This document shows positions 1 to 19,472 of a DNA stretch of 20,000 nt, piece after piece. The DNA lies in IMG/VR virus record IMGVR_UViG_2643221571_000003, positions 50,261-70,260 of that record; one strand, given 5' to 3'. This DNA comes from an uncultured virus (IMG/VR IMGVR_UViG_2643221571_000003). Its lineage: Duplodnaviria; Heunggongvirae; Uroviricota; Caudoviricetes. The translations under genes and the position numbers were made by a program. Under the pieces are notes generated by a model. It made no database searches, was not told the origin of the DNA, and was given only the letters and a program-made list of their open reading frames with translations. Positions within the stretch are counted from its first letter, which is position 1; the number at the start of each line of letters is the position of its first letter.

Positions 1-405
1 GATTGCTGGCAGGTATGCGCAGATTGGTATCAGCGTGAGTGGGGGCTTGAGTTCGAAGCCTTCCAGCGCACTGATGGCTGGTGGGAGAGTGAGGAAAACG
101 CCAGTCTGTACGAGGAGCAATACGAGGCTGCTGGCTTTGTTCGCGTGGACAGGCCACAACGTGGAGACCTAATCGTCATGCAGGTCGGCCGTACTGCTCA
201 CCCTAATCACGCCGGGGTATACTTGGGCATCGATCCGGCACTGCCTGGCGAAGACTCTGGGGTGTTTGGCCCGGGCCCGTTCCTGCTGCATCACCTATAC
301 GGTAGGCCTTCCGAGATAATTATCTACGGGGGCCCTTGGCATAATCGAACACGGCTGATATTGAGGCAAAAAAAACCAAGTTCGGGAAACCATGGTTCGG
401 ACTGA
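1..405 (+). CDS. Phage tail assembly protein K (NlpC/P60 family), 5' part outside window
   Basis: Frame 1 is open from base 1: DCWQVCADWYQREWG...GDLIVMQVG...PNHAGVYLG...LLHHLYGRPS. This gives the NlpC/P60 DC...H pattern of lambda gpK-like proteins, in the expected position upstream of I and J. Confidence 0.9.
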   Translation, partial: DCWQVCADWYQREWGLEFEAFQRTDGWWESEENASLYEEQYEAAGFVRVDRPQRGDLIVMQVGRTAHPNHAGVYLGIDPALPGEDSGVFGPGPFLLHHLYGRPSEIIIYGGPWHNRTRLILRQKKPSSGNHGSD

Positions 406-2819: not shown

Positions 2820-5800
2820 ATGGGCGCAGTACGCAAGATCGACATCCACGGCGCTAAGGGCGGCGAAGAGAAACCAAAAACGCCGACAGAAGCCCCGGAC
2901 AGTCTGCGCTCGGTTGCCGTCGCCAAAATGCTGATCGCCGTGGGCGAGGGTGAATTCGAAGGGACGCCAACGGCCAGGGATATCTACCTCGATAACACTC
3001 CGCTGCAAGACCCTCAAGGGAACATGAACTTCCCGAACGTGAAGTGGGAGTGGCGCACCGGGGCCGTGGACCAGACCTATATCCAGGGGATCCCGTCGGT
3101 CGAGAACGAGACCACCATCAGCACCGAACTGCGCAGCGGCACCCCGTGGGTTAGGGCGATCAACAACACTCAGCTTTCCGCTGTGCGCGTGCGTTTTGCC
3201 TGGCCGGCACTCCAGTCCGTGGACGCTGGGGGCAACATCAATGGGTACAGGATCGAATACAAGGTTGAGCTGGCCACTGATGGGGGCGCCTATCAGCCGG
3301 TGCTGAGCGAGGCTGTCGATGGCAAGACCACCAGCGTGTACGAGCGCACCCGCCGTATCGATTTGCCCAAAGCCACGACCGGCTGGTTGATGCGAATCAC
3401 CCGCATCACACCAAACCAGAACAACAATAAAATTTCGGACACCATGCAGATTGCCGGATTTACCGAGGTGATTGACGCGAAGATCCGCTACCCAAACACG
3501 GCACTGCTCTACATCGAGTTTTCTGCCGAGCAGTTCCGTAGCATCCCTGCCGTGACGGTCGAGACCAAGCTGAAAAAAATGCAGGTGCCGAGCAACTACG
3601 ACCCTGTGTCGCGCTCGTACAGTGGCGTTTGGGACGGTACCTTCAAGCAGGCCTGGACCGACAACCCTGTCTGGATGACCTACGACATAACCACCGCCGA
3701 TCGTTTCGGCCTGGGCCGTCGCATCAAGCCGTGGATGGTGGACAAGTGGGAACTGTACCGAATCTCGCAATACTGCGACCAACTGGTGCCGGACGGAAAG
3801 GGTGACCAGGAACCGCGCTTCATCTGCAACTTGAACCTGCAGAGCAAAGCTGATGCCTGGTCACTGCTGCGCGATATTTCGGCGATCTACCGAGGTATGA
3901 TGTACTGGGCCCAGGGCCAGGTGTTCACTCTCTCGGATATGCCGCGCGCAACGGACTTCGACTTTGCCTACACCCGGGCAAACGTCATCGACGGCAAGTT
4001 CACCTACTCGAGCGCGTCTGAGCGCACCCGCTACACCCGTGCACTGGTCAGCTACGACAACCCGCTGAACAACTACGACACCGACGTCACGGCTGTCACC
4101 GATCAGAAGCTACAGCGGCGCTACGGCGACAACCCGCTGGAGATCAGCGCTATCGGCTGCACTCGCGAATCGGAGGCCCAGCGCCGCGGTAAGTGGGCGC
4201 TGCTGACCAACTCCAAGGATCGGGCCGTAACCTTCAAGGTTGGTTTGGATGGCCGTATCCCGCTGCCTGGCTACGTGATCCCGATTGCTGACGAACTGCT
4301 GGCCGGCCGTGCCATTGGCGGGCGTATCTCAGCGGTAAAAGGCAAGGTCATCAAGCTGGACCGCGACACCCAGGCCAAGCCCGGCGACCGACTGATCCTC
4401 AACCTGCCTGACGGTAAGTGCGAGGGGCGCACCGTGCAACTGGTCAGTGGCCGGCAGGTTACGGTTACCGTGGCTTACTCCGTGACGCCTGAGCCGGAAC
4501 TGGTCTGGGCATTGGATACTGACGACTTGGCCGTCCCACTATACCGGGTGGTCAGCGTGGCCCGGCCAGAGCCTGGGGTCTTCGAAATATCGGCTGTTCA
4601 GTACGATCCGAGCAAGTTTGCGCACATCGACACAGGCGCTCGCCTGGAAGATCGCCCGATCAGCGTTATCCCGATCACCGTGGTACCGGCGCCGCCCAGT
4701 GTCACGCTGACGTCGAGCTACGCGGTTAGCCAGGGTATTGCCATCAGCACCATGAACATCTCGTGGCCTGCCGTAACTGGTGCCGTCGCTTATGAGGTGG
4801 AGTGGCGTAAGGACAACGGCAACTGGATCAAGGTACAGCGCACAGGCTCAACGAGCGTGGACGTCACCGGGATCTACTCGGGTGCGTACCTGGCCCGGGT
4901 GCGGTCGGTAAGCGCATTCGAAATCTCGTCGATCTGGAAAAACTCCAGCCTGACCAACCTGGAAGGGAAGGTTGGCCTGCCGCCGGCGGTGTCGTTCCTG
5001 ACCACCACCAGCTTGATCTATGGCATCGGCATCCAGTGGGGATTCCCACCAGGTGCGGAGGACACCCAACGGACGGAACTCTGGTACAGCGAGTCGCCCG
5101 ACTTGACGACGGCGGTCAAGCTGAGCGACTTCAGCTACCCGCAGGCCTCGCACGAAATGTACAGCCTGTTGGCGGGGGCAAGTCTGTTCTTCTGGGCGCG
5201 CTTGGTCGACCGGACCGGCAACGTAGGCCCGTTCTGGCCTGTACCTGGTGCAGTCCATGGCCAGGCCAGCACCAAGCAGAGCGACTATGAGGCCTACTAC
5301 GCCGAGAAGATCGGCAAGGGCGCCCTGTACCAGAGTCTGCGCGAAGAAATCGAACTGATTACAGGCGATGGGCCTGGCTCAGTAAATGAGCGCCTCGAGG
5401 AAGCCAAGCAGGAGCTGGAAGATCTGATCAAGCAAGTGAGCGATGCCCTCGCTTACGACCCGGAAAAGCCCTATCTGAAGGGCGACATCGTGCGTCTGGA
5501 TCAGCGTCTCTACCAAGCGAAAGGCCCTGTGCCTGTGGGAGCAACGCCGCCCGACGTCACGTACTGGATCGATATCGGCACCATCCTTGAGACCACTGAT
5601 GCACTGGTGTCCCAGGTGCAGATCATCGAAACCAAGATCGAGGAAATCGACGGCAAGGTGTTGGCCACCGCCACCTCAGTTGAGGCGTTGCGCTCAGCTG
5701 CCCGTGGTGACGACGGCGCCGGCGATCTGGCCGACGCAATCAAAGGCTGGACGTCTACGGCTGATCTTGCTGTAGAGCGTAAAACCCGAGCCAGCGAATA

Positions 5801-10100: not shown

Positions 10101-10610
10101 TCATTCGGATTCATTCAGCAGCGGGATCGTGAAAAAAACGCATCCGATCAACGTTGCAAATAAAGCTAACGTCTCTTCCAACTCCGGGTCTTCAAATAAT
10201 ATCGAGCGCGAATCTAGGGCGCATAGAGCACCATATAGCTGCCCATCAGGAAGGAAGATGGGAACACCTGCATAGCTTTCTATCGCATACCGTTTAACCA
10301 CCGCACGACTCGAGTATCTACCGTCTTCACTGATTTTAGGAATAAAAAGCGCCTTAGGATCTCTGCGGAGCTCGCTGCAAAGCGTGATTTCCAGCTCTAG
10401 TGTGTCACCTGCCTCTATCCCCATATGCATCGTGTCGTAAGCTGAGCAGACGATCCAGTCTGTTTCGGTGAACTTCGCGATCCCGGCAAATCGCATTCCA
10501 GTAAGGCGTGTTACAAGTTTTAAAATACTAGTGATAGCTTCCATCTCAGCCAACGCTGAACGCTCGTTTAAATTCAGCACAGAGTGCAAGCTGATTTCGG
10601 GCCTATTCAT
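10101..10610 (-). CDS. Stand-alone GAF domain protein
   Basis: LTGMRFAGIAKFTE..W, TLC, YAIESYAGVPIFLPDGQLYGALCALD: GAF signature; no kinase or output domain attached. Confidence 0.85.
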   Translation of the reverse strand: MNRPEISLHSVLNLNERSALAEMEAITSILKLVTRLTGMRFAGIAKFTETDWIVCSAYDTMHMGIEAGDTLELEITLCSELRRDPKALFIPKISEDGRYSSRAVVKRYAIESYAGVPIFLPDGQLYGALCALDSRSILFEDPELEETLALFATLIGCVFFTIPLLNESE

Positions 10611-10696
10611 ATTCCACCTGTGCTGTTTTTAATTGGGCGCGCCGCGTTGGCGTCTGAGATCCTACGATCAGCCGAAAATTGCGTTTGGCCGATTTA

Positions 10697-12322
10697 CTAC
10701 GTCCTGAATCGAAGAACCAAATCGTTTAGGTTAACGGCCAAGCGAGAAAGCTCGTTGCTCGCTGTAAGTGTCTGGCGGGTGCCTTCACTACTCTGCACTG
10801 CAAGGTCGCGGATGCTTATCAGACTACGATCAACATCCCGCGCGACGTGAGCTTGTTCCTCGGATGCGGTTGCAATTTGGATATTCCGATCGTTAATTTC
10901 GAGCACGGAATTAATAATTTGCCGCAGTGACTGGCCCGCTTGTTCTGCAGTATCTCGCGTGCTGTAGACCTCGGATGTGCTCTTTTGCATAGATTCAACC
11001 GCGGCAGAAGAACCGGCTTGAATCGTGGATATCATCTGTTCAATTTCTTGCGTCGATGTTTGTGTTCGGTGTGCCAGCGCACGAACTTCGTCTGCGACTA
11101 CTGCGAAACCGCGACCCTGTTCTCCTGCACGAGCCGCTTCTATCGCGGCGTTCAAAGCGAGTAGGTTGGTTTGCTCAGCAATCGCCCTGATCACGCTCAA
11201 AACTTTAGTAATGTCTTGAGCCTGGCCCGCGAGTTCTTTCACCTGATCTGATGATACCTCTACCAAGCCTGTCAGGCCGCGCATCGCTGTCAAGGTCTCA
11301 GTGACTTTTTGATTCCCGAGATCTGCAGATATGCTTGATTGCATCGCTGCTTCAGATGTGGAATTGGCGTTCCGTGCAACCTCTTCAACAGCCGCGCTCA
11401 TTTCAGTTACTGCGGTAGCAGCTTGCTCGATTTCGCTATTTTGCTGCTGAAGTGTGCGATCAGCGCTTTCAGTGATCGAAGTCATTTCGACGGCCGCGGT
11501 ACTTAGCTGGGTTGAAGCTCCCGAGATTTCTAAAATTGTGCGTCGCAAATTTTTCTGCATAAGATTCAGCGCATGCATCAATCGCGAAGCTTCATCTGAA
11601 CCTGTTATATCAAGATCATGGGTAAGGTCGCCAGCAGCGATATTTTCCGCCAATTTAAGTGATGAACTGATTGGACTTACGATGCTCCTAGTGAACAAGA
11701 TCGCCAGTGCTATGGTTAACACAAATGCAACAATCAGTACTGCTACCAGGACTTTTACACTATGGTTATATACGTCGGTCGCGTCTACTCCAGACACCAC
11801 GGCCTGGCGTGCATTTTGCTCTCGCAGTAGTGTCAGCTGCTCTTGATAAGCCGTAGCTCTTTGTGCCTGCTCTGTGTTGGCAAAATTCACAGCCTGATCA
11901 TGATCAGATGAATACAAAGCGATTACTTTTTTGAGGCCGTCGACGTAAGCACCCATAGCCTGATTCGCCTTCGCAAACTGGATTTCGTCCTGCTCTCCAG
12001 ACATCAAATGTGCACGATAGAAATCAGTTTTCACCTGAAGTGTCTGTATAGCTTCTTCGACCTTTGACAGCGAGAAATCATGCACCTCTGCCGTGGTGCT
12101 TGAGAGCATGCGGATACTTTCAAGGCGGGCGTGAAGGAGGGCGATCTGAATATCGTCAATGACCTGAATGCTTGGGAGGGAGTTTTGCTCAATGTCCTGT
12201 TCTGCAGCGCGCAGCCGATCAATTTGCAGATAAGAGAAGCCTGCCAAGCTGATCAGTAGGAGGGTGATTAAGCCAAAACAGACGAAAGCTCGTCGCGCGA
12301 TACTTAAGGATCTTAATTTCAT
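10697..12322 (-). CDS. Methyl-accepting chemotaxis protein (two TM, four-helix-bundle-type sensor, HAMP, MA domain)
   Basis: [36 protein letters not shown] signalling hairpin; HAMP IAAGDLT...GSDE; RBS GGAGG. Confidence 0.95.
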
Positions 12323-12832
12323 TTAGGCCTCCGAGGGCCGGATTTAGTAGCGTGGCTTTTCCACGTCATTTCAAGGATCACGAACGAAGGCAGCATTTTC
12401 ATGCGGCACAGTGACTTCCAGCTGCAGCTTGCAGGCATATACCTAAAACGCGGTATGCAAAAAAATGTATTGGAATGATAGACGTGCTAAATAATTGCGC
12501 GCTAAATAATATTGTGTGCGCTCGCTACGTACGGCTCACCAGTTTTGGCTGCGGGACGTCCGGGACGTGCCATGCTATAGGCGAGCAGTACAAGCACAGC
12601 ACATAGCAGGACTCTCCAGACATGCTTTCGTATGGAGGTCATTTTCGGATATGGACAGAGCACTATGGACAAGCGGCTTGCAGGTCTTTCATTTCTGCTT
12701 ACCCTGGGATGGGTGGTTGCGGTCATAGGGGTGATGTTTTTTTTTGGCGCTTAACCCGTCTCACCTGATGACTGAACTTATTGAATGCCCTTTGCCTCTG
12801 AAATACTACATCCACTCATTTGGATAGGTATT

Positions 12833-13120
12833 ATGAGCCTTGGCGCGAGATTGAAGTCAGAGCGATTGAGGTTAGGGTTGTCACAATCTGCTGTTGGTAG
12901 CATCGGCGGAATTGAGGTAAATGCGCAGGGGCGCTACGAAAGCGGCATTCGTGTTCCTCGGGCAGATTATTTAGCTGCAGTCGCGAAAGCCGGCGTAGAC
13001 ATATTGTTTGTCATCACCGGGGAGCGTAGTCAAAACGGCAACGCAGATTCTGCAAAAGCTGTGGAGGCTCTCGATAGTGCGACGGAATGTCTTGAGAAAG
13101 CTAAGGAACTGATCCACTAA
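12833..13120 (+). CDS. XRE-family helix-turn-helix regulator
   Basis: LGARLKSERLRLGLSQ..G.IGG.....Q.RYESG.R.PRADYL...GVD..FVITG. ATG 12833 preferred over 12785. Confidence 0.88.
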   Translation: MSLGARLKSERLRLGLSQSAVGSIGGIEVNAQGRYESGIRVPRADYLAAVAKAGVDILFVITGERSQNGNADSAKAVEALDSATECLEKAKELIH

Positions 13121-13815
13121 ATTTTGTACCCGTTTCGGCTAGTAGACTGGATCAGCTCTGGTCCCTTGTTCCGTGCATTATCCACGGCCGTATCGACCTT
13201 GAACCACTCGAACACCTCGGACGGTTCACCCTGGTGAAGCACCATTTGCTCGGCTCGCTCCATGGGTGTGGCTGGATCCAACCATTCCCGGGCCAGGTCT
13301 GGCGTCAGCACCACGGGCCGCCGGTCGTGAATGTCCACCATGCCCCCGGCGCTGTCGGCTGTGATGATGACGAAGCCGTCATGCTCACCCGGGCCTTCGT
13401 CTGCATCAGGTAGCTGGCCGATGGCAGCACAGAATATCGGTGCACTATCCCGCCGGCGGATGAGGTAAGGCTGCTTCTTCGGTCCGCCTTCGTCGACCCA
13501 TTCAAACCAGTTATTGATCGGCGTTATTGCACGGTGAGGCCAGATCGCCCGGAAGAACGGGCCGTGGGCGACTTTCTCGACGCGGGCGTTGATCGGCGCA
13601 GCGTGATCCTTGGCCCAGTGCGGTCGCCATCCCCAGCGCACCGGGTCGGCGTGTAGAAGATCGCCCTGCAGGTGTAGCAGCGCAACCGCTGTTGTCGGTG
13701 CCACGTTATACCGTTCAATTGGTTGATCGCCCACAGAGTTCGCCAGAGCGTTGGGCATGCTCAGCGCCGCAACGAAGTCGTGGATACCGCTGTACTGTGA
13801 TAGTCGTCCGCACAT
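13117..13815 (-). CDS. SOS response-associated peptidase (SRAP/HMCES/YedK family), abasic-site protection
   Basis: N-terminal MCGR (catalytic Cys2), RYNVAPT, INARVE, WFEW, IHDRRPVVL; RBS GGAG before ATG 13815. Confidence 0.93.
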   Translation of the reverse strand: MCGRLSQYSGIHDFVAALSMPNALANSVGDQPIERYNVAPTTAVALLHLQGDLLHADPVRWGWRPHWAKDHAAPINARVEKVAHGPFFRAIWPHRAITPINNWFEWVDEGGPKKQPYLIRRRDSAPIFCAAIGQLPDADEGPGEHDGFVIITADSAGGMVDIHDRRPVVLTPDLAREWLDPATPMERAEQMVLHQGEPSEVFEWFKVDTAVDNARNKGPELIQSTSRNGYKI

Positions 13816-13898
13816 AAGCATCTCCGCTCGTCGGCGCTAATGAACAGCCGGTCCCCGGCCAATCTCTACACTGTAGACACTGGCTCGAGGCATTCGTC

Positions 13899-14108
13899 AT
13901 GGCGATCAACATTGAACAAGTCACCGCAATGGAGGCGTGGTTTGCGCTACGCAATGATCCCGCATTCATATCGGTCACTCCTGAGGAACGCTACGAAACG
14001 CGGCTGGCCCTGGCGGATGACTTGAAGCAGCAGGGCCTAATTGATGATAACGAGTGGCGGGAGCTTACCGAGGAAGCCGTAGCAGCCTACGCGGATGAGC
14101 TTGGGTGA
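13899..14108 (+). CDS. Small acidic hypothetical protein divergent from SRAP
   Basis: 69 aa, RBS GAGG, helical; ADDL...GLID..EWREL pattern. Confidence 0.7.
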   Translation: MAINIEQVTAMEAWFALRNDPAFISVTPEERYETRLALADDLKQQGLIDDNEWRELTEEAVAAYADELG

Positions 14109-14452
14109 AGTTCATGCAGTGCTTTTAGCTCTGCCAGCAGCCGCTGATTTTCCCTGAACAGATAGTCCCTCTGCTCGGTAACAATCTTCACGCTTTGCAC
14201 CGAGCCAAACGACTGCTGGTGTTCCAGCATACTTATCTTTTCCAGCGCATCGGCAAGCTTTCCTTCGGCCTCGGCCTTTCCTGTCATGAGCAGGTCATTC
14301 ATTTGCACCAGCCCGGCGATATTGGCTCGAGCTCTGCGCAGCATGCGCTCGGTCTCGACCAGTTCTTCTACGAGAAGTGAGCACTGGTGCTGGTACATCT
14401 CCAGTGGAGTGGGGCAGCCGAGCCAATCATCGGTGTCCATGTCAACGTTCAT
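14087..14452 (-). CDS. Hypothetical coiled-coil protein, probably LexA-regulated
   Basis: 121 aa; DWLGCPTPLEMYQHQC then heptad-rich helix; SOS box 17 nt upstream. Confidence 0.7.
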   Translation of the reverse strand: MNVDMDTDDWLGCPTPLEMYQHQCSLLVEELVETERMLRRARANIAGLVQMNDLLMTGKAEAEGKLADALEKISMLEHQQSFGSVQSVKIVTEQRDYLFRENQRLLAELKALHELHPSSSA

Positions 14453-14469
14453 AGCATGAATCTCAGATG

Positions 14470-14485
14470 CTGTATGTGCGTACAG
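14470..14485. promoter_or_regulatory. LexA (SOS) box
   Basis: CTGT-ATGTGCGT-ACAG matches CTGT-N8-ACAG. Confidence 0.85.
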
Positions 14486-14544
14486 TAATCTGGATTTGGT
14501 CAGGTGGAAGGTTTGAAGCGACGAACTGCAGGGTTACCCGACGA

Positions 14545-14754
14545 TCAGTCGGGCGACATGAGGACTGCTAGAGTCAGCTTGATGAACTCTTCGTTCTCGT
14601 CGATGGTGTGCAGCGCGCCGCGAATATTCTCGGCCACATCCGCGGAGCCACGCTGCTCCACCCAGTTCGATAACTCCATGATGGAAGCCTCGAGGGCCAG
14701 CTGGTTTTCGTAGAGCTTGGAGAGTAGGGAGGGGAGAAGGTCTGAGTTGGGCAT
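14545..14754 (-). CDS. Conserved 69-aa hypothetical protein (copy 1)
   Basis: MPNSDLLPSLL...; RBS GAGGA; paralog at 18841-19050 with 56/69 identical residues by my count. Confidence 0.8.
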   Translation of the reverse strand: MPNSDLLPSLLSKLYENQLALEASIMELSNWVEQRGSADVAENIRGALHTIDENEEFIKLTLAVLMSPD

Positions 14755-14811
14755 CGGAGTTCCTCTGGTGGAGTGCACAGCTTAGCAGTGGTCGCCTTGA
14801 GGGGGGATTTG

Positions 14812-14831
14812 CGGTCGGCAGGACGCCGGAG
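14812..14831. repeat. 20-bp motif CGGTCGGCAGGACGCCGGAG (copy 1)
   Basis: Identical to 19106-19125; internal dyad CGGC-AGGAC-GCCG. Confidence 0.9.
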
Positions 14832-14959
14832 AGGGGTGAAAAAGAGTTCCAAAACTAAAGCCGCACCCCTTGTAGAATGCGGTCTGTAGCCCGATCACTT
14901 TTCCTTAGTAATGGAACCCCGCAGGCCTTTAAAGCCCTTGCCTGCTTGGATTTGCATAG

Positions 14960-15022
14960 CGGTCTTGAAAACCGGCGAACGTTAATAGCGTTCCCAGGAT
15001 TCGAATCCCTGGTTTTCCGCCA
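14960..15022 (+). mobile_element. attR: 3' fragment of tRNA-Ser(TGA), prophage boundary
   Basis: Anticodon arm CGGT-CTTGAAA-ACCG, long variable arm GAACGTT-AAT-AGCGTTC, T arm CAGGATTCGAATCCCTG, ending GCCA. No 5' acceptor strand or D arm upstream. Confidence 0.88.
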
Positions 15023-15026
15023 AGAT

Positions 15027-15221
15027 TTACACGAAAGCCCCGCGAATGCGGGGCTTTTGCGTTTCTGGAGGTCGGTCTACCGGGAATCTCTCTCCCTTCC
15101 AAACGGTTGCCCCGACTTCAAGGTCGTCGTTCTCGGCCAGTAGCTCATCAAAACTGTCGCAATTGACCAGCTCTTCATTGACTGACCAGGTTTCGTCGGG
15201 GATTGTGTTTTCTTCAGGCAT
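15027..15221 (-). pseudogene. Possible truncated phage-like gene
   Basis: Acidic protein-like N-terminus (WSVNEE..NCDSFDELL) whose frame runs into the terminator hairpin. Confidence 0.35.
15034..15058 (+). terminator. Rho-independent terminator (original tRNA-Ser terminator)
   Basis: AAAGCCCCGC-GAAT-GCGGGGCTTT-T. Confidence 0.85.
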
Positions 15222-15303
15222 GACTTCGTCCTTGCCGCTATAGCGGCTATCAAATTCATCGAGCGCAGAGGTATCGTTGCCTCCTTAGAAATGGAGGTGA
15301 GAT

Positions 15304-15537
15304 GTGGTCGTACATGGAATTGAATACCGTTTTTGCCGTGCTTCAAGCGTCGTCATAGGTCATGACGGCTTGGCTTTAGAGTGCTGGGAAGGCCAGAGGG
15401 CTCAGATGTTCGAGATCTTCCGGAATGACGAAACGCTGCGTTTCGAGGTCACCCTATTTGAGCCAAGTGTTCCCCTTGAATTGCTTGAATATGCTGTTCA
15501 AATTGCGCGGGATAGCCTCGGGGATTTTTGCCCATAG
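15304..15537 (+). CDS. Small hypothetical protein
   Basis: GTG start after strong RBS GGAGGTG; 77 aa; DGLALECW..FEIFRND..VPLELLE. Confidence 0.65.
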   Translation: MVVHGIEYRFCRASSVVIGHDGLALECWEGQRAQMFEIFRNDETLRFEVTLFEPSVPLELLEYAVQIARDSLGDFCP

Positions 15538-15607
15538 CCCCCGACTTAGGGTCATAGCGGCTGACTCATGGTTAAATGGTGGGAATTCTTAATGGAGGGT
15601 GTGAGTT

Positions 15608-15748
15608 ATGGACAACACAATCAAACGACCAATGTTCATTGTGGGCGCGTCACTGCTAGCCGTAGGCCCTGCCACCTCGATCCCCGGTTTCTGGATCCCT
15701 GGTATTGTCTTCATGGGCATTGGGATCTCCCAGAAGCCAAAGAACTGA
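15608..15748 (+). CDS. 46-aa small membrane protein (absent from ORF track)
   Basis: MDNTIKRPMFIVGASLLAVGPATSIPGFWIPGIVFMGIGISQKPKN; purine-rich GGAGGG upstream; two short hydrophobic segments and basic termini. Confidence 0.55.
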   Translation: MDNTIKRPMFIVGASLLAVGPATSIPGFWIPGIVFMGIGISQKPKN

Positions 15749-15991
15749 TAGCGTTACACAAACCACCGGCAAGAGGGGTCCAGCCCGACTGCGCGGCAGC
15801 CATCAGCTATTGCGGGAGCGAACCGGCGGTACGCACTGTACGGGTGGAGGTGCGGCCTTGGGCAGCCGCCGGGCTCAAGACATCCGACAGCTTGGCAGTT
15901 AAGGTTCGGGCTGTGCTAGCAGAGCGGCGGCAGCGGATCGGGTAAGAGCGGCACGTGTGGGTTTCAGTTGATACCTCCTTGGTCAACCGTC

Positions 15992-16777
15992 CTAAGGCGA
16001 GACTGAAGCATTATTTGTTTTCTGCTTGATCGAGTTTAATATTACGTCAACAGTGTGTGCCTCAGTAGTTCTTCCGTCACTTTTTTCTATAATTGATTTT
16101 GAACGCTGAGTATCGCCATACAGTTTATAGATGGCAGCTAAGAAAGCTTCAGCTTCACCAAATGGTGTGGCTTCGTAAGATTTTTCCGCGAACGAAATAA
16201 TCATAGGTTTTACTTTTTGTGGGTCTTGGCGGCTCAGGAGGTCGGAGGCTTTAAGCCTATAAATGGCAGAGATTAAATTCTTGTCCGCAAAAACTTGGAA
16301 TTCTGATTGTTTTCCTTCGGAAAGCTCATGGTTTATCTTGACTAAGAGTTTGTCCATAATGCCTATTGCTTTTTCGTGCTCTCCTTTAAAGTAGAGGGTC
16401 GTGGCACCAAGAAAAGCATAAGGGTTACTGTTTTCTTTATAGCATTTTTGAAATAAGCTAGCGTATTTTGCTCCTTCTTCCTTATTGTCGCTTATTGAGG
16501 CCAGGCCTAGCATTGAGCTGTAGATAGAGCATAGTTTGCTAATATCGGTTATGGTTTTTTCTTCTCTTAGTAGTAGGGTTCTTGCCTCGTTGTACTTTCC
16601 CTGCTCTATGAGTTTTGGGGCGTCGTACATATCGAGGTTGTCATCAGTCAACGATGCGCTGGCGTTCGCATACATTAAACTGCTTATGAATAAGGCTGAA
16701 AGGCCTACTAAATATTTTATTGGTGCTGAGGTTGTTTTATTCATTAGCAGGCTACGATATAAGTTACTCATTATCAC
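15992..16777 (-). CDS. Exported TPR-like hypothetical protein (start may be ATG 16744)
   Basis: Signal peptide ending ANASA; TPR-like helices (QGKYNEARTLL, KGEHEKAIGIM, LAAIYKLYGD); AT-rich. Confidence 0.7.
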   Translation of the reverse strand: MIMSNLYRSLLMNKTTSAPIKYLVGLSALFISSLMYANASASLTDDNLDMYDAPKLIEQGKYNEARTLLLREEKTITDISKLCSIYSSMLGLASISDNKEEGAKYASLFQKCYKENSNPYAFLGATTLYFKGEHEKAIGIMDKLLVKINHELSEGKQSEFQVFADKNLISAIYRLKASDLLSRQDPQKVKPMIISFAEKSYEATPFGEAEAFLAAIYKLYGDTQRSKSIIEKSDGRTTEAHTVDVILNSIKQKTNNASVSP

Positions 16778-16930
16778 TTTTCCATTTCAATCGCAGTAGG
16801 GCTGTTTTTTTGGGAGGCGGCCGCGGCCCCTAATCATTTTCGCACTATCGCCATGACCAGTCGAAAACCCGAACTCGCCTGATTTTCGGGATTTTTATTC
16901 CCACCCCATCCGTCAATAAAAACCGGCGTG

Positions 16931-17044
16931 TCAGAAAGATATCACGTTGCCCACGGCCGTATTGACCTTGAACCACTCGAATACCTCGGTTGGCTCGCCC
17001 TGATGCAGCACCATGTCGCTACATTGTGAAAGCCTTGCGCACAT
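16931..17044 (-). pseudogene. SRAP remnant with in-frame internal deletion
   Basis: Translates MCARLSQCSD-MVLHQGEPTEVFEWFKVNTAVGNVISF*, matching residues 1-10 and 191-214 of the intact SRAP at 13117-13815. Confidence 0.9.
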
Positions 17045-17108
17045 AGGCACCGCTCCGTCTGTCGAAATCCCTACAGAAAAATTGACCGCAAGCCGGCTGC
17101 AAAGTTAA

Positions 17109-17124
17109 CTGTACATTCGTACAG
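17109..17124. promoter_or_regulatory. LexA (SOS) box of rulAB
   Basis: CTGT-ACATTCGT-ACAG; TTGACC (17082-17087) upstream as a possible -35. Confidence 0.9.
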
Positions 17125-17144
17125 TGTTTATAGAAGGCTGCATC

Positions 17145-17570
17145 ATGAGCTTTACCATTTTAGGTCCTATATCCGAGGGCGGCACGAAGCTGCCTTTCTG
17201 CTCGTTTCGTGTACCTGCTGGGTTCCCATCACCGGCAGCCGATCACATCGAGCAGCATATCTCATTGGATGAGGTCCTAAATATCAGGGCGCCACACGTC
17301 TATCTGATCGCGATTACTGGCGAAAGTATGCAGGGTGCGGGGATTTTTGAGGGAGACCTGGCAGTTGTGGATCGGTCAATTGAGCCGGCCCACGGACACG
17401 TCGTTGTAGCTCTTTTGAACAACGATCCTGTCTGCAAGCGCCTGTGCAAGCGCGGCAAAGAGGTGATTCTCTTATCTGAAAATCCGAAATACCCAGCGCG
17501 GTATGTATTGGAGGGTGACGAGCTATCGATCTGGGGTGTGATCACAAGCACGGTGCGCAGTCATGTCTAA
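17145..17570 (+). CDS. rulA: DNA polymerase V subunit UmuD/RulA (S24 autopeptidase)
   Basis: VPAGFPSPA cleavage site, GESM catalytic Ser, VCKRL Lys; 141 aa from ATG 17145. Confidence 0.93.
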   Translation: MSFTILGPISEGGTKLPFCSFRVPAGFPSPAADHIEQHISLDEVLNIRAPHVYLIAITGESMQGAGIFEGDLAVVDRSIEPAHGHVVVALLNNDPVCKRLCKRGKEVILLSENPKYPARYVLEGDELSIWGVITSTVRSHV

Positions 17571-18837
17571 CGCGCAGGTCTTCGCACTGATTGACTGCAA
17601 TAGCTTCTATGCAAGTTGCGAGCGTGTCTTCCGTCCGGATCTGGCAAAGGTGCCCATTGTGGTGTTGAGCAATAACGACGGTTGCGTCATTGCCCGGAGT
17701 TACGACGCCAAGCCTTTCATCAAGATGGGCGAGCCGTATTTCCAAATCAAACATAAGCTGAAACAGCATGGGATCGTTCCTTTCTCATCCAACTACGCGC
17801 TCTATGGCGACATGAGCGAGCGAGTGATGACCCTGATCGAATCGATGGTTCCTGCCGTTGAGATTTACAGTATCGATGAGGCGTTTGCTGACCTGTCGGG
17901 TATTTCCGAGCTGGATGCTTTGGGGCGTCAGATCCGGGCGCGGGTATTGCGCTGCACTAGCATACCGGTGGGAGTTGGAATAGCGAGCACCAAGACCTTG
18001 GCCAAGCTGGCCAACCACACGGCAAAGCGATTGCAAGCTCAAACCGGTGGTGTGGTGAACATCACCGATCCGGTCAAGCGCGATTGGGTCCTGCGTAATA
18101 CTGACATCTGCGAAGTGTGGGGCGTAGGCCGCAAAATGAAGCTCCACTTCGACGCCATGGGCATAAAGTCAGCGATGGACCTGGCCAGGGCAGATCCTCG
18201 GACGCTCCGTAAGAAATTCAGCGTAGTGATCGAAAAGACGGCGCGGGAGCTGGCCGGCACATCGTGTCTGGAACTTGACGAGCCCGACCCGCCCAAGCAA
18301 GAAATATGCTGCAGCCGGATGTTCGGCAAACGGCTGACCGATCTGCCGCCGATCAAGGAGGCGGTGGCCACCTACATGATGCGCGCCTCAGAAAAGCTTC
18401 GCGCCCAAAACTCACTTTGTAAAAAGGTCCGCGTCTGCATCCGCACAGGCATGTTCAACCCCGAGGAGGGGAAGTATGCCAACGGCGTGGTGGTCGATAT
18501 GCCGTACCCCACCGATGACGTGCGCTTGCTCACGAAAGCCGCCGTCGATGCGCTCGACAGAATTTTCCGGCCGGGTTTCAAATACAGCAAGGCCGAGGTA
18601 ATGCTGCTCAACCTGTGCCAGCCAGGCGAATACACCGATGATCTTTTTGCAATATCGCGGCCGACCGAGGCAACCCAGGTCATGACTGTCCTTGATCAGA
18701 TCAATGAACGTTGGGGAAAGGGAACGCTTCGATCTGCCAGCGTACCTACCAACCCCGACTGGGGTATGCGTCGAGAGATGATGAGCCAGAGCTATACCAC
18801 TAAGCTGGACCAACTCTGGACGGTGGCCTGCAAGTAG
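17563..18837 (+). CDS. rulB: DNA polymerase V subunit UmuC/RulB (Y-family)
   Basis: LIDCNSFYASCE, VVLSNNDGCVIARS, YSIDEAF, TKTLAKLAN, C-terminal W.MRREMMSQSYTT; overlaps rulA; uninterrupted. Confidence 0.95.
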   Translation: MSNAQVFALIDCNSFYASCERVFRPDLAKVPIVVLSNNDGCVIARSYDAKPFIKMGEPYFQIKHKLKQHGIVPFSSNYALYGDMSERVMTLIESMVPAVEIYSIDEAFADLSGISELDALGRQIRARVLRCTSIPVGVGIASTKTLAKLANHTAKRLQAQTGGVVNITDPVKRDWVLRNTDICEVWGVGRKMKLHFDAMGIKSAMDLARADPRTLRKKFSVVIEKTARELAGTSCLELDEPDPPKQEICCSRMFGKRLTDLPPIKEAVATYMMRASEKLRAQNSLCKKVRVCIRTGMFNPEEGKYANGVVVDMPYPTDDVRLLTKAAVDALDRIFRPGFKYSKAEVMLLNLCQPGEYTDDLFAISRPTEATQVMTVLDQINERWGKGTLRSASVPTNPDWGMRREMMSQSYTTKLDQLWTVACK

Positions 18838-18840
18838 TGC

Positions 18841-19050
18841 TCATTCCTCCGTCATAAGGACAGCCAGCGACATTTTGATGAATTCTTCATTGTGGCCGAT
18901 TGTGAAAAGGGCGCCTCGCACATTGTCTGCCACCTCGGCGGAGCCACGTTGCTCAACCCAATTTGACAGCTCCAGGATGGACGCTTCGAGGGCAAGTTGG
19001 TTTTCGTAGAGTTTGGAAAGCAGGGAAGGGATTAGGTCTGAGTTCGGCAT
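18841..19050 (-). CDS. Conserved 69-aa hypothetical protein (copy 2)
   Basis: MPNSDLIPSLL...; RBS GGAGGA; paralog of 14545-14754. Confidence 0.8.
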   Translation of the reverse strand: MPNSDLIPSLLSKLYENQLALEASILELSNWVEQRGSAEVADNVRGALFTIGHNEEFIKMSLAVLMTEE

Positions 19051-19105
19051 CGTTGTTCCTCCGTGGAGCGAACAGCGTAGCAGGCAAATTATTGAGTTGG
19101 GAGAT

Positions 19106-19125
19106 CGGTCGGCAGGACGCCGGAG
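19106..19125. repeat. 20-bp motif CGGTCGGCAGGACGCCGGAG (copy 2)
   Basis: Identical to 14812-14831. Confidence 0.9.
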
Positions 19126-19131
19126 GAAGGG

Positions 19132-19164
19132 AATTGCGGAGCGGCTTCTAAAATTGCGGAGCGG
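19132..19164. repeat. Direct repeat AATTGCGGAGCGG x2 (candidate integrase arm sites)
   Basis: 13-bp perfect copies at 19132-19144 and 19152-19164, 20-bp period, 48 nt from the tRNA-Leu 3' end. Confidence 0.7.
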
Positions 19165-19204
19165 AAAAGATAAGGGCCTGCTCAGGTTTCCCTGGCAAGC
19201 CCTT
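19165..19204 (-). terminator. tRNA-Leu terminator hairpin
   Basis: Minus strand AAGGGCTTGC-CAGG-GAAA-CCTG-AGCAGGCCCTT followed by ATCTTTT. Confidence 0.6.
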
Positions 19205-19212
19205 GATATCTA

Positions 19213-19299
19213 TGGTGCCCGAACCCGGAATCGAACCGGGACGCCCTTACGAGCGGGGGATTTTAAGTCCCATGCGTCTACCAGTTTCGCCATTCGGGC
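19213..19299 (-). tRNA. tRNA-Leu (anticodon TAA)
   Basis: GCCCGAATGGCGAAACTGGTAGACGCATGGGACTTAAAATCCCCCGCTCGTAAGGGCGTCCCGGTTCGATTCCGGGTTCGGGCACCA: complete 87-nt cloverleaf with long variable arm and CCA. Confidence 0.97.
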
Positions 19300-19324
19300 G
19301 GTAGCGCGGTGTAGCAGGGTTGGG

Positions 19325-19353
19325 AATATATAGATCCTGTCGCTTCGGCGCAA
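19325..19353 (-). promoter_or_regulatory. Sigma70 promoter of tRNA-Leu
   Basis: TTGCGC-N17-TATATT on the minus strand, 25 nt upstream of the tRNA. Confidence 0.65.
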
Positions 19354-19472
19354 CCTCGAAACGCGCTTTCCTGCACAAAGATATGCGTGAAAAAGCGTGG
19401 CAGATCAGTCATCTACATGTTCGCCGAGTTAAGTCCTGATGAATTTATGCGGCGCAGGAACAAGCCTCATAA

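What the first reader, a model, noticed from the sequence alone, without database searches (positions are those of the whole stretch)
13117..19212. Same terminal module twice, each beside a different tRNA att: SRAP, LexA-boxed gene(s), 69-aa ORF, 20-bp motif
Seen: module A (13117-14960) is intact SRAP(-), a small divergent gene, a LexA-boxed coiled-coil gene, the 69-aa ORF(-), the 20-bp motif, then attR in tRNA-Ser. Module B (16931-19212) is deleted SRAP(-), LexA-boxed rulAB, the 69-aa paralog(-), the identical motif, then tRNA-Leu. Order and orientation of the outer parts match while the middle SOS-controlled slot differs. The 69-aa paralogs are 56/69 identical with mostly conservative changes and many synonymous differences, so this is not a recent duplication. 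Known: SRAP proteins shield abasic sites and often neighbour umuDC. Inference: an att-proximal DNA-damage cassette of Pseudomonas temperate elements, with an exchangeable SOS slot and an uncharacterised 69-aa core protein.
Basis: partly seen in the sequence, partly recalled or inferred. Interest (0 to 1): 0.75.

Follow-up and report, generated by a model that had tools for sequence, protein, structure and literature searches.

The report
Prophage-edge cargo block with tiny conserved gene
Two copies of the cargo region that Pseudomonas temperate phages carry next to their integration site lie here, each led by a small, very conserved acidic protein of unknown function, followed by DNA-damage genes that vary from phage to phage.

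Summary
Both modules are present as described: SRAP (intact, or internally deleted), a LexA-boxed slot (a coiled-coil gene, or rulAB), a 69-aa gene (56/69 identical, dN/dS 0.09), an identical 20-bp motif, then a tRNA piece.

The block is the attachment-site (att)-proximal cargo region of temperate Pseudomonas phages, between the tail/lysis genes and attP, opposite the integrase.

- **Family:** the 69-aa family (phrog_12397) has no Pfam or NCBIfam match and was found in 229 of 301 Pseudomonas species genomes.
- **Position:** it sits at the prophage edge pointing inward. Phage genes lie within 5 kb downstream in 38 of 65 loci and upstream in 1 of 65.
- **Coupling to the damage genes:** this is loose. 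SRAP lies near 23 of 79 copies, but the 69-aa gene lies near only 4 of 40 SRAP genes. It is an autonomous accessory gene (a 'moron'), not the core of a DNA-damage machine.
- **Motif:** it stays with the att arm and, with a conserved −10-like box, looks like a promoter for whichever cargo gene comes first.
- **"attR in tRNA-Ser":** this is a 63-nt fossil. The repeats that bound the 66.5-kb unit are tRNA-Leu, and a third module remnant lies outside the window.

The protein's function is unknown. The fold is an acidic helical hairpin.

The parts
13117..13821 (-). Intact SRAP (SOS response-associated peptidase) gene, module A. The likely true start is the MCGR... methionine at 13815.
   Evidence: Pfam PF02586, E 9.2e-46; phrog_1599, 4.2e-76; translation.
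13899..14108 (+). Small acidic 69-aa ORF divergent from SRAP. It is unrelated to the other 69-aa family.
   Evidence: ORF. Weak match to phrog_19595, E 1.1e-4. Homologs lie in the same place beside SRAP in L011, L018, L024, L047 and L064. pI 4.05.
14087..14452 (-). LexA-boxed 121-aa coiled-coil gene ('cc121'), the slot gene of module A.
   Evidence: No family match. 457 relatives, all named 'hypothetical'. It is the next gene after the 69-aa gene in 18 of 79 loci. It is 53% identical to VW6S_23 of phage VW-6S.
14470..14485 (.). LexA-type box CTGTATGTGCGTACAG, upstream of cc121.
   Evidence: Pattern CTGT-N8-ACAG: 2 in the window against 0.21 expected. A box lies at about +253..+269 from the 69-aa start in 15 of the 18 loci with cc121 next (L025 and L076 have none, L070 has it at +1242).
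14545..14754 (-). 69-aa acidic helical-hairpin protein, copy A.
   Evidence: phrog_12397, E 1.5e-38. 2485 relatives. dN/dS 0.09. AlphaFold2 pLDDT 88, two helices. pI 4.26.
14778..14788 (-). Conserved box CTGCTAAGCTG, an extended -10-like element (TGnTAnnnT), about 25-35 nt before the start codon of copy A.
   Evidence: CTGCTACGCTG with at most 1 mismatch in 69 of 79 loci and at most 2 in 77 of 79. That it acts as a promoter element is inferred.
14812..14831 (.). 20-bp motif, copy A (core GGCGTCCTGCCGAC on the minus strand).
14861..14882 (-). Terminator-like hairpin between the tRNA-Ser piece and the motif. It would shield the 69-aa gene from read-through.
   Evidence: The same hairpin is seen in L020.
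14960..15077 (+). Fossil att core: the 3' 63 nt of tRNA-Ser(tga) (14960-15022) plus its terminator hairpin.
   Evidence: No whole tRNA. tRNA-Ser transcripts diverge from the window exactly at 14960. 94% identical to the 3' part plus terminator of an intact tRNA-Ser in L044. The unit 14812-15075 is conserved in L054 (two copies), L020 and L041.
16931..17044 (-). Internally deleted SRAP, module B: 10 N-terminal and 27 C-terminal codons fused in frame.
17109..17124 (.). LexA-type box CTGTACATTCGTACAG, between the SRAP remnant and umuD.
   Evidence: An identical box precedes the second rulAB copy at record position 1075.
17124..18837 (+). rulAB / umuDC-like translesion polymerase operon: umuD-like to 17570, umuC-like 17563-18837.
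   Evidence: Pfam Peptidase_S24 8.9e-28; IMS 5.1e-34, IMS_C and DUF4113.
18841..19050 (-). 69-aa protein, copy B.
   Evidence: 56/69 identical to copy A. phrog_12397, E 1.1e-35.
19073..19083 (-). Conserved -10-like box CTGCTACGCTG of copy B.
19106..19125 (.). 20-bp motif, copy B.
19132..19164 (.). Two direct repeats AATTGCGGAGCGG spaced 20 nt apart, probably integrase arm-type sites of the tRNA-Leu att.
   Evidence: The same repeats lie between tRNA-Leu and the motif in L014, L016, L021, L023, L026, L060 and L064. That they bind integrase is inferred.
19213..19299 (-). Intact tRNA-Leu(taa), the attachment site of the unit.
   Evidence: ARAGORN. Rfam tRNA, 53.6 bits. Its 3' 59 nt are repeated at record 2922-2980 beside the integrase.

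Best explanation
The two modules are copies of the cargo ('moron') region that temperate Pseudomonas phages carry between their lysis/tail genes and attP, on the att arm opposite the integrase. This is the position of the lambda b region.

Reading inward from the att site, the layout is:
1. Integrase-specific arm repeats.
2. A shared promoter-like element. It has a C-rich tract plus GGCGTCCTGCCGAC, placed at about -58..-45 from a predicted transcription start, and about 31-32 nt further on a TGCTA(C/A)GCT extended -10-like box.
3. The 69-aa gene.
4. A variable slot, often with its own LexA box. It holds the coiled-coil gene, rulAB, or another unknown gene.
5. Often SRAP.

The 69-aa protein is an autonomous, strongly conserved accessory gene. 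It is a very acidic two-helix hairpin that most likely acts by binding another protein, not DNA. It is not an obligate partner of the damage-tolerance genes. Those genes are SOS-switched cargo that helps the lysogen, or the induced phage, copy damaged DNA.

The window holds two modules because the 66.5-kb unit bounded by identical tRNA-Leu repeats is a mosaic. It keeps a fossil tRNA-Ser att half with module A inside it, and has module B at its tRNA-Leu end. An older, third remnant (rulAB without the 69-aa gene) lies beyond the integrase.

Shown: the anatomy, the conservation, the edge position and the loose coupling. Inferred: the promoter role of the motif, expression in the lysogen, the protein-binding mode of action and the history of the mosaic.
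For: Edge position:
- Of 65 loci with at least 5 kb on both sides, phage tail or lysis genes lie within 5 kb downstream of the 69-aa gene in 38 and upstream in 1. The neighbour families were identified.
- An intact co-oriented tRNA-Leu or tRNA-Ser lies 163-218 nt upstream in 15 of 79 loci. Any intact or partial tRNA lies nearby in 31 of 79.
- Chromosomal genes such as Bax1-I and EamA lie beyond the tRNA.

Phage membership:
- The family is phrog_12397.
- Homologs occur in VW-6S and phiAH14b.
- In VW-6S the order integrase, motif, LexA box, cc121 homolog, then lysis genes is seen in a free phage genome.

A real protein: dN/dS is 0.093 for the window pair, with a median of 0.080 over 1753 pairs.

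Spread:
- 2485 clusters at 90% identity and 475 at 50%.
- 229 of 301 Pseudomonas species genomes, up to 13 copies each. Without the unpublished genomes G103 and G154 this is 227 of 299.

Motif as a promoter element:
- The core with at most 1 mismatch occurs 47 times in 1.47 Mb. By my own arithmetic about 0.5 are expected. 27 lie 50-100 nt before the 69-aa start, and 19 of the other 20 are on the same strand.
- The same motif, with a TA(A/C)GCT or TACTGT hexamer about 31-32 nt downstream, precedes the 69-aa gene, SRAP in L096 and the LexA-boxed cc121 homolog in VW-6S.
- The motif also precedes DUF3606 in L060 and at record position 281, where only a weaker TACCGT/TACCCG-like hexamer lies at about that spacing.

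Loose coupling:
- Among the 79 copies, SRAP lies within 3.5 kb of 23, cc121 is next in 18 and umuC in 11.
- The 69-aa gene lies within 4 kb of only 4 of 40 SRAP genes.

Mosaic history:
- Self-comparison shows record 988-2803 is 89% identical to rulAB of module B, and 2818-2980 is 92% identical to the stretch from the motif to the tRNA-Leu 3' part.
- The aligned junction is identical through the tRNA part.
- The integrase at record 3098-4132 is 76-78% identical to integrases that sit beside tRNA-Leu fragments in L028 and L079.
- Tandem copies also occur in 6 of 79 other loci.

Fold and charge: AlphaFold2 gives pLDDT 88 with helices 6-34 and 38-66. pI is 4.26 and 4.41.
Against: - No transcription start, expression state or binding partner was measured.
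- The sigma-70 consensus scan found no promoter anywhere in 13000-19400.
- The motif core (2 or fewer mismatches) is missing from the 110 nt upstream in 36 of 79 loci. These include a second conserved type of upstream sequence.
- The motif stays with the att arm when genes are inserted between it and the 69-aa gene. This fits a role in recombination as well as it fits a promoter.
- The 79 loci are the best-scoring 80 of 166 relatives, from related species, so the counts are not independent events.
- The gene clusters rest on crude ORF calls and on one Pfam-scanned representative each.
- A 66.5-kb unit is large for this kind of phage. A chromosomal rearrangement or an assembly error could also give the Ser/Leu arrangement.
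- The helical hairpin fold matches nothing specific, so the protein-binding mode of action is an argument from charge and shape only.
Confidence: 0.62

Rival explanations
1. One reading: one functional DNA-damage cassette in which the 69-aa protein is the constant core. It would work with SRAP and the SOS-slot gene, for example as a DinI-like modulator of RecA, LexA or UmuD.
For: - cc121 or umuC is the very next gene in 29 of 79 loci.
- SRAP lies within 3.5 kb in 23 of 79 loci.
- A LexA-type box lies within 3 kb downstream in 35 of 79 loci. About 2-3 would be expected from the density seen in the shuffles.
- The protein is small and acidic, like known SOS modulators (recalled; for the charge).
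Against: - 43 of 79 copies have no coiled-coil or umuC slot gene and no SRAP nearby.
- Only 4 of 40 SRAP loci have the gene, while about 12 of 40 have umuC.
- The gene has its own conserved promoter-like region with no conserved LexA box.
- Homologs also sit near cI, away from damage genes, in VW-6S and at record position 22216-22392.
- Only 4 of 72,556 plasmid records carry it, although rulAB is common on Pseudomonas plasmids (recalled).
- No Pfam match, including to DinI-type families.
Confidence: 0.15
2. The motif is a recombination accessory site at the outer edge of the att arm, bound by a host factor or an excision factor. The 69-aa protein would then regulate integration or excision.
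For: - The motif always abuts the integrase-specific arm repeats.
- It stays there when other genes (DUF3606, small ORFs) are inserted between it and the 69-aa gene.
- It is shared by elements with at least four kinds of arm sequence.
- It lies on the arm opposite the integrase, where lambda carries its Xis sites (recalled).
Against: - The spacing to a -10-like hexamer is conserved in front of three unrelated genes. An arm site would not need this.
- The core motif is absent upstream of 36 of 79 copies.
- The protein has pI 4.3 and is a plain helical hairpin, unlike the small basic winged-helix excision factors (recalled).
- In VW-6S about 1 kb and a gene separate the integrase from the motif.
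Confidence: 0.15
3. The 69-aa gene is an ordinary chromosomal gene that happens to flank tRNA-Leu and tRNA-Ser. Phages would then integrate beside it rather than carry it.
For: - It lies directly after intact tRNA genes in 15 of 79 loci.
- In L028 it lies beyond the displaced tRNA-Leu fragment, outside the prophage whose integrase abuts it.
Against: - It is present in free phage genomes.
- There are up to 13 copies per genome.
- It is found beside at least four different att contexts.
- Phage tail and lysis genes follow on the inner side in 38 of 65 loci.
- The L028-type arrangement is what stacked integrations at one tRNA produce.
Confidence: 0.04

Closest known systems
Morons and the b region of lambdoid phages. 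Also the ctx gene next to attP of the tRNA-Ser-integrating Pseudomonas phage phiCTX.
   Same: - Accessory genes sit between the tail/lysis genes and attP, opposite the integrase.
- They are transcribed on their own and flanked by terminators.
- Their content varies between related phages.
- They are dispensable for phage growth.
   Different: - One tiny gene and one promoter-like motif recur across siphovirus-like and P2-like prophages with different integrases and att sites.
- Much of the rest of the cargo is SOS-controlled.
The SRAP-UmuDC gene neighbourhood, and SRAP in temperate phages (Aravind et al. 2013, PMC3765255; passages read).
   Same: - SRAP is divergent from a LexA-boxed umuDC pair, as in module B and in about 12 of 40 Pseudomonas SRAP loci.
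- SRAP was already noted in prophages.
   Different: - That paper does not mention the att-proximal position, the 69-aa gene, the coiled-coil gene or the motif in the passages I read.
- Here SRAP is also found with non-polymerase LexA-boxed genes.
rulAB of Pseudomonas syringae plasmids and integrative conjugative elements. Seen only as passages in PMC12388829 and PMC3390384; the rest is recalled.
   Same: An SOS-induced UmuDC-type translesion polymerase carried by mobile elements of Pseudomonas.
   Different: - Here it is carried at a prophage edge beside a tRNA att site.
- The 69-aa gene is almost absent from plasmids (4 of 72,556 records).
Small acidic phage or SOS modulators such as DinI, PsiB and the 69-residue helical Aqs1 of phage DMS3. 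Recalled, and only a likeness of kind.
   Same: Size, strong negative charge, a helical build and a phage or mobile-element origin.
   Different: - No sequence match to any solved structure (profile search at E up to 10) or to Pfam.
- The structural matches are generic hairpins.
- No target is known.

Membership tests
SRAP (PF02586) | Match to the family model over its full length. | tested here: met
   Module A: E 9.2e-46, profile positions 1-213 of 214. Module B keeps only 37 codons.
SRAP (PF02586) | Catalytic cysteine as residue 2, after the start methionine. | tested here: met
   MCGR... follows an in-frame methionine in module A. The remnant of module B begins MCAR.... That this residue is the defining one is recalled.
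UmuDC / RulAB (Pol V type) | An S24 peptidase gene directly followed by a Y-family polymerase gene. | tested here: met
   Peptidase_S24 8.9e-28. IMS 5.1e-34, IMS_C 2.1e-17, DUF4113 3.4e-18. The two ORFs overlap at 17563-17570.
UmuDC / RulAB (Pol V type) | SOS control through a LexA box. | tested here: inconclusive
   CTGTACATTCGTACAG lies directly before the operon. LexA binding and induction were not testable.
phrog_12397 (unknown function) | Match to the family profile over its full length. | tested here: met
   E 1.5e-38 and 1.1e-35, profile positions 1-68/69 of 69.
Moron (autonomous accessory gene of a temperate phage) | Lies between conserved phage modules and is present in some relatives but not others. 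| tested here: met
   It lies between the lysis/tail genes and att. It is absent at the equivalent place in VW-6S and L096, where the motif precedes another gene.
Moron (autonomous accessory gene of a temperate phage) | Has its own promoter and terminator. | tested here: inconclusive
   A conserved -10-like box and an upstream motif are present, with hairpins upstream (and the sequence). No transcription start was measured, and the consensus sigma-70 scan was negative.
Element integrated in the 3' end of a tRNA gene | A direct repeat of the tRNA 3' part at the far end, next to an integrase. | tested here: met
   tRNA-Leu: 59 nt are repeated at record 2922-2980, 117 nt from the integrase gene, and are identical through the tRNA part.
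   Only the 63-nt fragment plus terminator is present. There is no intact tRNA-Ser and no second copy in the 70,260-base record.
Excisionase / recombination directionality factor | A small basic DNA-binding protein, usually winged-helix (recalled). | tested here: not met
   pI 4.26 and 4.41. The model is two long helices with no strand. No Pfam match.
DinI / PsiB-type SOS modulators | Match to the family models. | tested here: not met
   No Pfam family at E up to 0.01. No NCBIfam match. No solved relative at E up to 10. A functional likeness is not excluded.
Known anti-phage defence proteins (PADLOC) | Match to any model. | tested here: not met
   No match for the 69-aa proteins, cc121, the small divergent ORF or SRAP.

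The most novel reading that the evidence does not exclude
The 69-aa hairpin would be a new class of small acidic inhibitor that nearly all fluorescens-type Pseudomonas prophages place at their att edge. It would act on a conserved host protein of the DNA-damage or induction pathway, such as RecA, LexA or a repair nuclease. In that way it would set the threshold for prophage induction and SOS mutagenesis. The shared motif would be the binding site of a common regulator that couples its expression to the integrated state.
Probability: 0.12. Interest if true: 0.75.

Novelty: new variant of a known kind. Interest (0 to 1): 0.45.

Why it matters
The gene occurs in about three quarters of the sampled Pseudomonas species, often in several copies. 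It is under strong purifying selection and is kept even in decayed prophage remnants. No function, family name or paper is attached to it.

Its fixed place and conserved promoter-like region make it an easy target for knockout, reporter and pull-down work in harmless laboratory strains.

The block also shows how SOS-controlled damage-tolerance genes (SRAP, rulAB and unknown LexA-boxed genes) travel on phage edges and pile up at tRNA genes. This bears on UV tolerance and mutability of plant- and soil-associated Pseudomonas.

Tried and rejected
- **Family searches.** Pfam, NCBIfam and PADLOC gave nothing for the 69-aa protein, cc121 or the small divergent ORF. The ESM Atlas returned only 'hypothetical protein' clusters.
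- **Structure searches.** Foldseek against PDB and BFVD gave no hit at E <= 1e-3. The wide VIA search gave only generic helical hairpins at Z about 8. A profile search of PDB sequences gave nothing below E 0.78.
- **Homodimer test.** Dimerisation stays an assumption.
- **RNA evidence.** Contigs of four RNA runs cover SRAP and part of cc121 but not the 69-aa gene. Contigs cannot show absence, starts or strand, so no inference on expression was drawn.
- **Non-coding RNA.** Rfam at a permissive threshold found no family at the motif.
- **Promoter scan.** The sigma-70 consensus scan found 0 promoters in 13000-19400.
- **A LexA box for the 69-aa gene itself.** CTG-N10-CAG overlaps the ribosome site in copy A but not in copy B (my reading). 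I rejected it because it is not conserved.
- **Origin of the 1.9 kb between the tRNA-Ser fossil and module B.** Only a 43-bp repeat matched in five related genomes, and little matched in the 79 loci. The origin is unresolved.
- **Plasmid link.** Only 4 of 72,556 records matched.
- **Literature.** Four searches found no paper on the 69-aa family, the motif, cc121 or phage VW-6S in the held library. Subscription journals are not covered.
- **Earlier notes of this scan.** None were found.

Full report
**The observation.**

Module A:
- An intact SRAP gene at 13117-13821(-), Pfam E 9.2e-46.
- A small divergent ORF at 13899-14108(+).
- A 121-aa coiled-coil ORF at 14087-14452(-), preceded by CTGTATGTGCGTACAG at 14470-14485.
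- A 69-aa ORF at 14545-14754(-).
- The 20-bp motif at 14812-14831.

Module B:
- An SRAP remnant at 16931-17044(-). It is an in-frame fusion of 10 N-terminal and 27 C-terminal codons.
- CTGTACATTCGTACAG at 17109-17124.
- An umuD/umuC-type operon at 17124-18837.
- The 69-aa paralog at 18841-19050(-).
- The identical motif at 19106-19125.
- tRNA-Leu(taa) at 19213-19299(-).

Comparison with chance:
- The motif occurs twice in the window and in none of 200 shuffles.
- The LexA-type pattern occurs twice against 0.21 expected.
- The paralogs are 56/69 identical. They differ by 30 synonymous and 17 non-synonymous changes, giving dN/dS 0.093.
- DNA homology between the modules covers the 69-aa gene and its upstream region, and it ends just past the motif.

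**Two corrections.**

First, there is no whole tRNA-Ser. A 63-nt 3' part begins exactly at 14960. RNA contigs of true tRNA-Ser from other organisms diverge from the window at that base. The piece plus its terminator, up to about 15077, is 94% identical to the end of an intact tRNA-Ser(tga) in locus L044.

Second, the tRNA-Ser piece points away from the 69-aa gene, while tRNA-Leu points toward it.

**The wider record.**

The window is the last 20 kb of a 70,260-base provirus record. The rest of the record shows the following:
- Self-comparison finds a second rulAB copy at record 988-2803, 89% identical to that of module B.
- This copy is followed at 2818-2980 by a degenerate motif, the arm repeats and the 3' 59 nt of tRNA-Leu, but no 69-aa gene.
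- A tyrosine integrase gene lies 117 nt further on, at 3098-4132(-).
- A lambdoid prophage follows: repressor, cro, replication genes, NinG, terminase, portal and tail genes.
- The tRNA part is identical in the two copies, while the flanks are 85-92% identical.
- Integrases 76-78% identical to this one sit beside tRNA-Leu fragments in L028 and L079.

By att logic, the integrated unit runs from record 2981 to the intact tRNA-Leu, which is 66.5 kb. It therefore contains both module A, with its tRNA-Ser fossil, and module B. The rulAB copy on the far side of the integrase is the remnant of an older element at the same tRNA.

This history is an inference. A chromosomal rearrangement or an assembly error could produce the same arrangement.

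A third, frameshifted 69-aa copy lies near the repressor at record 22216-22392.

**The 69-aa family.**

- It matches phrog_12397, unknown function, at E 1.5e-38. Nothing matches in Pfam, NCBIfam or PADLOC.
- The large protein collection holds 2485 clusters at 90% identity, all named 'hypothetical' and all from Pseudomonas where a name is given.
- A profile search of 1.84 billion representatives finds 475 clusters at 50% identity, all short proteins.
- A profile found it in 229 of 301 sampled Pseudomonas species genomes, with up to 13 matches in one genome. Without the two unpublished genomes this is 227 of 299.
- The median dN/dS over 1753 pairs is 0.080.
- AlphaFold2 gives a confident two-helix hairpin: pLDDT 88, helices 6-34 and 38-66.
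- pI is 4.26 and 4.41.
- Structure searches return only generic hairpins. No solved relative is detectable by sequence.

**Where the gene sits.**

I fetched 79 loci from one genome per species. These are the best 80 of 166 relatives, at 78-99% identity.

- An intact, co-oriented tRNA-Leu(taa) lies 163-218 nt upstream in 7 loci, and a tRNA-Ser(tga) in 8.
- Counting tRNAs within 700 nt and partial fragments, 31 of 79 loci show a tRNA att.
- Of 65 loci with 5 kb on both sides, phage tail or lysis genes lie within 5 kb downstream in 38 and upstream in 1. These include Rz, tail tip, tail fibre assembly, P2 gpU and gpD, and endolysin, identified.
- Beyond the tRNA lie ordinary chromosomal genes.

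The gene is therefore the outermost gene of siphovirus-like and P2-like prophages, and it points inward.

Two arrangements exist: integrase, tRNA-Leu part, 69-aa gene (L028), and integrase, reversed tRNA-Ser part, 69-aa gene (L024). Both place the gene on the att arm opposite the integrase.

In the free phage VW-6S the order is integrase, about 1 kb, motif, LexA box, a cc121 homolog (53% identical), then the lysis and tail genes. Its own 69-aa homolog lies between cI and the integrase.

**The slot and SRAP.**

- Directly after the 69-aa gene comes cc121 in 18 of 79 loci and umuC (convergent, with umuD and a LexA box) in 11 of 79. Seven of those umuC genes are full-length.
- SRAP follows within 3.5 kb in 23 of 79 loci, 19 of them full-length.
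- A CTGT-N8-ACAG box lies within 3 kb in 35 of 79 loci.
- A further unknown 248-aa gene sits behind a LexA-type box in L048, L061, L064, L068 and L069.

The coupling to the 69-aa gene is loose, however:
- 43 of 79 copies have neither the coiled-coil or umuC slot gene nor SRAP nearby.
- In the reverse test, the window's SRAP found 43 matches in 32 of 61 genomes.
- Of the 40 SRAP loci fetched with 4 kb on each side, 4 held the 69-aa gene and about 12 held umuC.

SRAP next to UmuDC, and SRAP in prophages, were described by Aravind et al. 2013 (passages read). Only 4 of 72,556 plasmid records carry the 69-aa gene.

**The motif.**

Aligning the 140 nt upstream of all copies shows two conserved blocks:
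- CTGCTACGCTG lies about 25-35 nt before the start codon. It has at most 1 mismatch in 69 of 79 loci and at most 2 in 77 of 79. It reads as an extended -10 (TGnTAnnnT).
- A C-rich tract plus GGCGTCCTGCCGAC lies about 32 nt further upstream. It has at most 2 mismatches in 43 of 79 loci.

Between the tRNA and the motif lie repeats specific to each att type. The tRNA-Leu type has AATTGCGGAGCGG twice, 20 nt apart. The tRNA-Ser type and at least two other contexts have different repeats. I take these to be integrase arm sites.

The core with at most 1 mismatch occurs 47 times in 1.47 Mb. Of these, 27 lie right before the 69-aa gene, and 19 of the other 20 are on the same strand.

Where another gene has been inserted, the motif stays at the att arm and the box stays with the 69-aa gene. 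This holds for DUF3606 in L060 and at record position 281, and for small ORFs in L011, L018 and L020.

The motif also precedes two other genes, with a TAAGCT or TACTGT hexamer 31-32 nt downstream:
- SRAP in L096.
- The LexA-boxed cc121 homolog in VW-6S.

This constant spacing in front of unrelated genes is why I read the motif as an upstream promoter element, at about 60% within this explanation. The alternative, an arm-associated recombination site, remains open. Nothing measured a transcription start, and a sigma-70 consensus scan was negative.

**What it most likely does.**

The block is a cargo region of the lambda b-region kind.

The LexA-boxed genes would be switched on by DNA damage. 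rulAB is a translesion polymerase (established knowledge of the UmuDC family). SRAP shields abasic sites (recalled). cc121 and the 248-aa gene are unknown. These genes would help either the lysogen or the induced phage genome to be copied across lesions.

The 69-aa protein has its own promoter-like region, bracketed by hairpins. One lies at 14861-14882. Another is an inverted repeat with a T-run just after tRNA-Leu, seen in the sequence.

The gene is kept intact in decayed remnants such as module B, and it occurs in tandem arrays in 6 of 79 other loci. An acidic helical hairpin with no DNA-binding features most likely works by binding a protein. I cannot name the target.

**Comparison and novelty.**

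The kind of thing is known: morons beside attP, SRAP with UmuDC, rulAB on mobile elements.

What is new:
- One uncharacterised small protein and one promoter-like motif are the constant features of this edge, across prophages with different integrases, att sites and tail types.
- Two further LexA-boxed gene families of unknown function share the slot.

Four literature searches found nothing on these in the held library.

**Limits.**

- The loci are related, so the counts are not independent.
- ORFs and clusters come from simple scripts.
- Expression, binding and the dimer were not tested. The complex predictor was not available, and the RNA contigs were uninformative for the 69-aa gene.

Noticed in passing
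outside the window: record 988-2980 (locus L007): A second, intact rulAB copy with an identical LexA-type box at record 1075. It is followed by a degenerate motif, arm repeats and a 59-nt tRNA-Leu fragment, but no 69-aa gene. This is an older module remnant, displaced by the prophage.
   Followed up: yes
outside the window: record 22216-22557(-) (locus L008 4216-4557): A third, frameshifted copy of the 69-aa family near the cI repressor. It belongs to a diverged subfamily that begins ...YSLPD.LERIYENQLALEA. VW-6S also has its homolog between cI and the integrase.
   Followed up: partly
window 10101-12322(-): A GAF-domain protein and a full methyl-accepting chemotaxis protein (4HB_MCP, HAMP, MCPsignal) are carried as prophage cargo, just inside module A. 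The same chemoreceptor follows SRAP in L042 and L071.
   Followed up: partly
outside the window: record 32399-32653(-) (locus L008 14399-14653): The prophage encodes a CsrA/RsmA-family RNA-binding regulator (Pfam CsrA, 9.1e-14).
   Followed up: no
outside the window: record 12441-12569 and 12572-12700: A perfect 129-bp tandem duplication in the early region of the prophage.
   Followed up: no
window 15206-15248: A 43-bp element, 84-98% identical to single sites in four of five related Pseudomonas genomes and to sites in L028 and L036. It is probably a small dispersed repeat.
   Followed up: no
window 15992-16777(-): A low-GC (about 40%, against 50-60% around it) 261-aa ORF with weak TPR-like matches only. 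It lies in the unexplained 1.9 kb between the tRNA-Ser fossil and module B.
   Followed up: partly
loci L048, L061, L064, L068, L069, L084 (e.g. L084 14021-14767): A 240-300-aa protein family with no Pfam or PADLOC match occupies the slot. A LexA-type box precedes it in L048, L061, L064, L068 and L069 but not in L084. It is another unknown candidate SOS gene of these prophage edges.
   Followed up: partly
locus L005 13835-14194 (phage VW-6S gene VW6S_23): The record annotates this gene as 'defense against restriction protein A, DarA'. It is a 119-aa homolog of the LexA-boxed coiled-coil gene (53% identical), with its own LexA-type box, so the annotation looks wrong.
   Followed up: partly
record 1-177(-) and loci L015, L060, L069: A 58-aa DUF3606 gene can take the first place after the motif, between att and the 69-aa gene. 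It is another small recurrent edge gene.
   Followed up: partly
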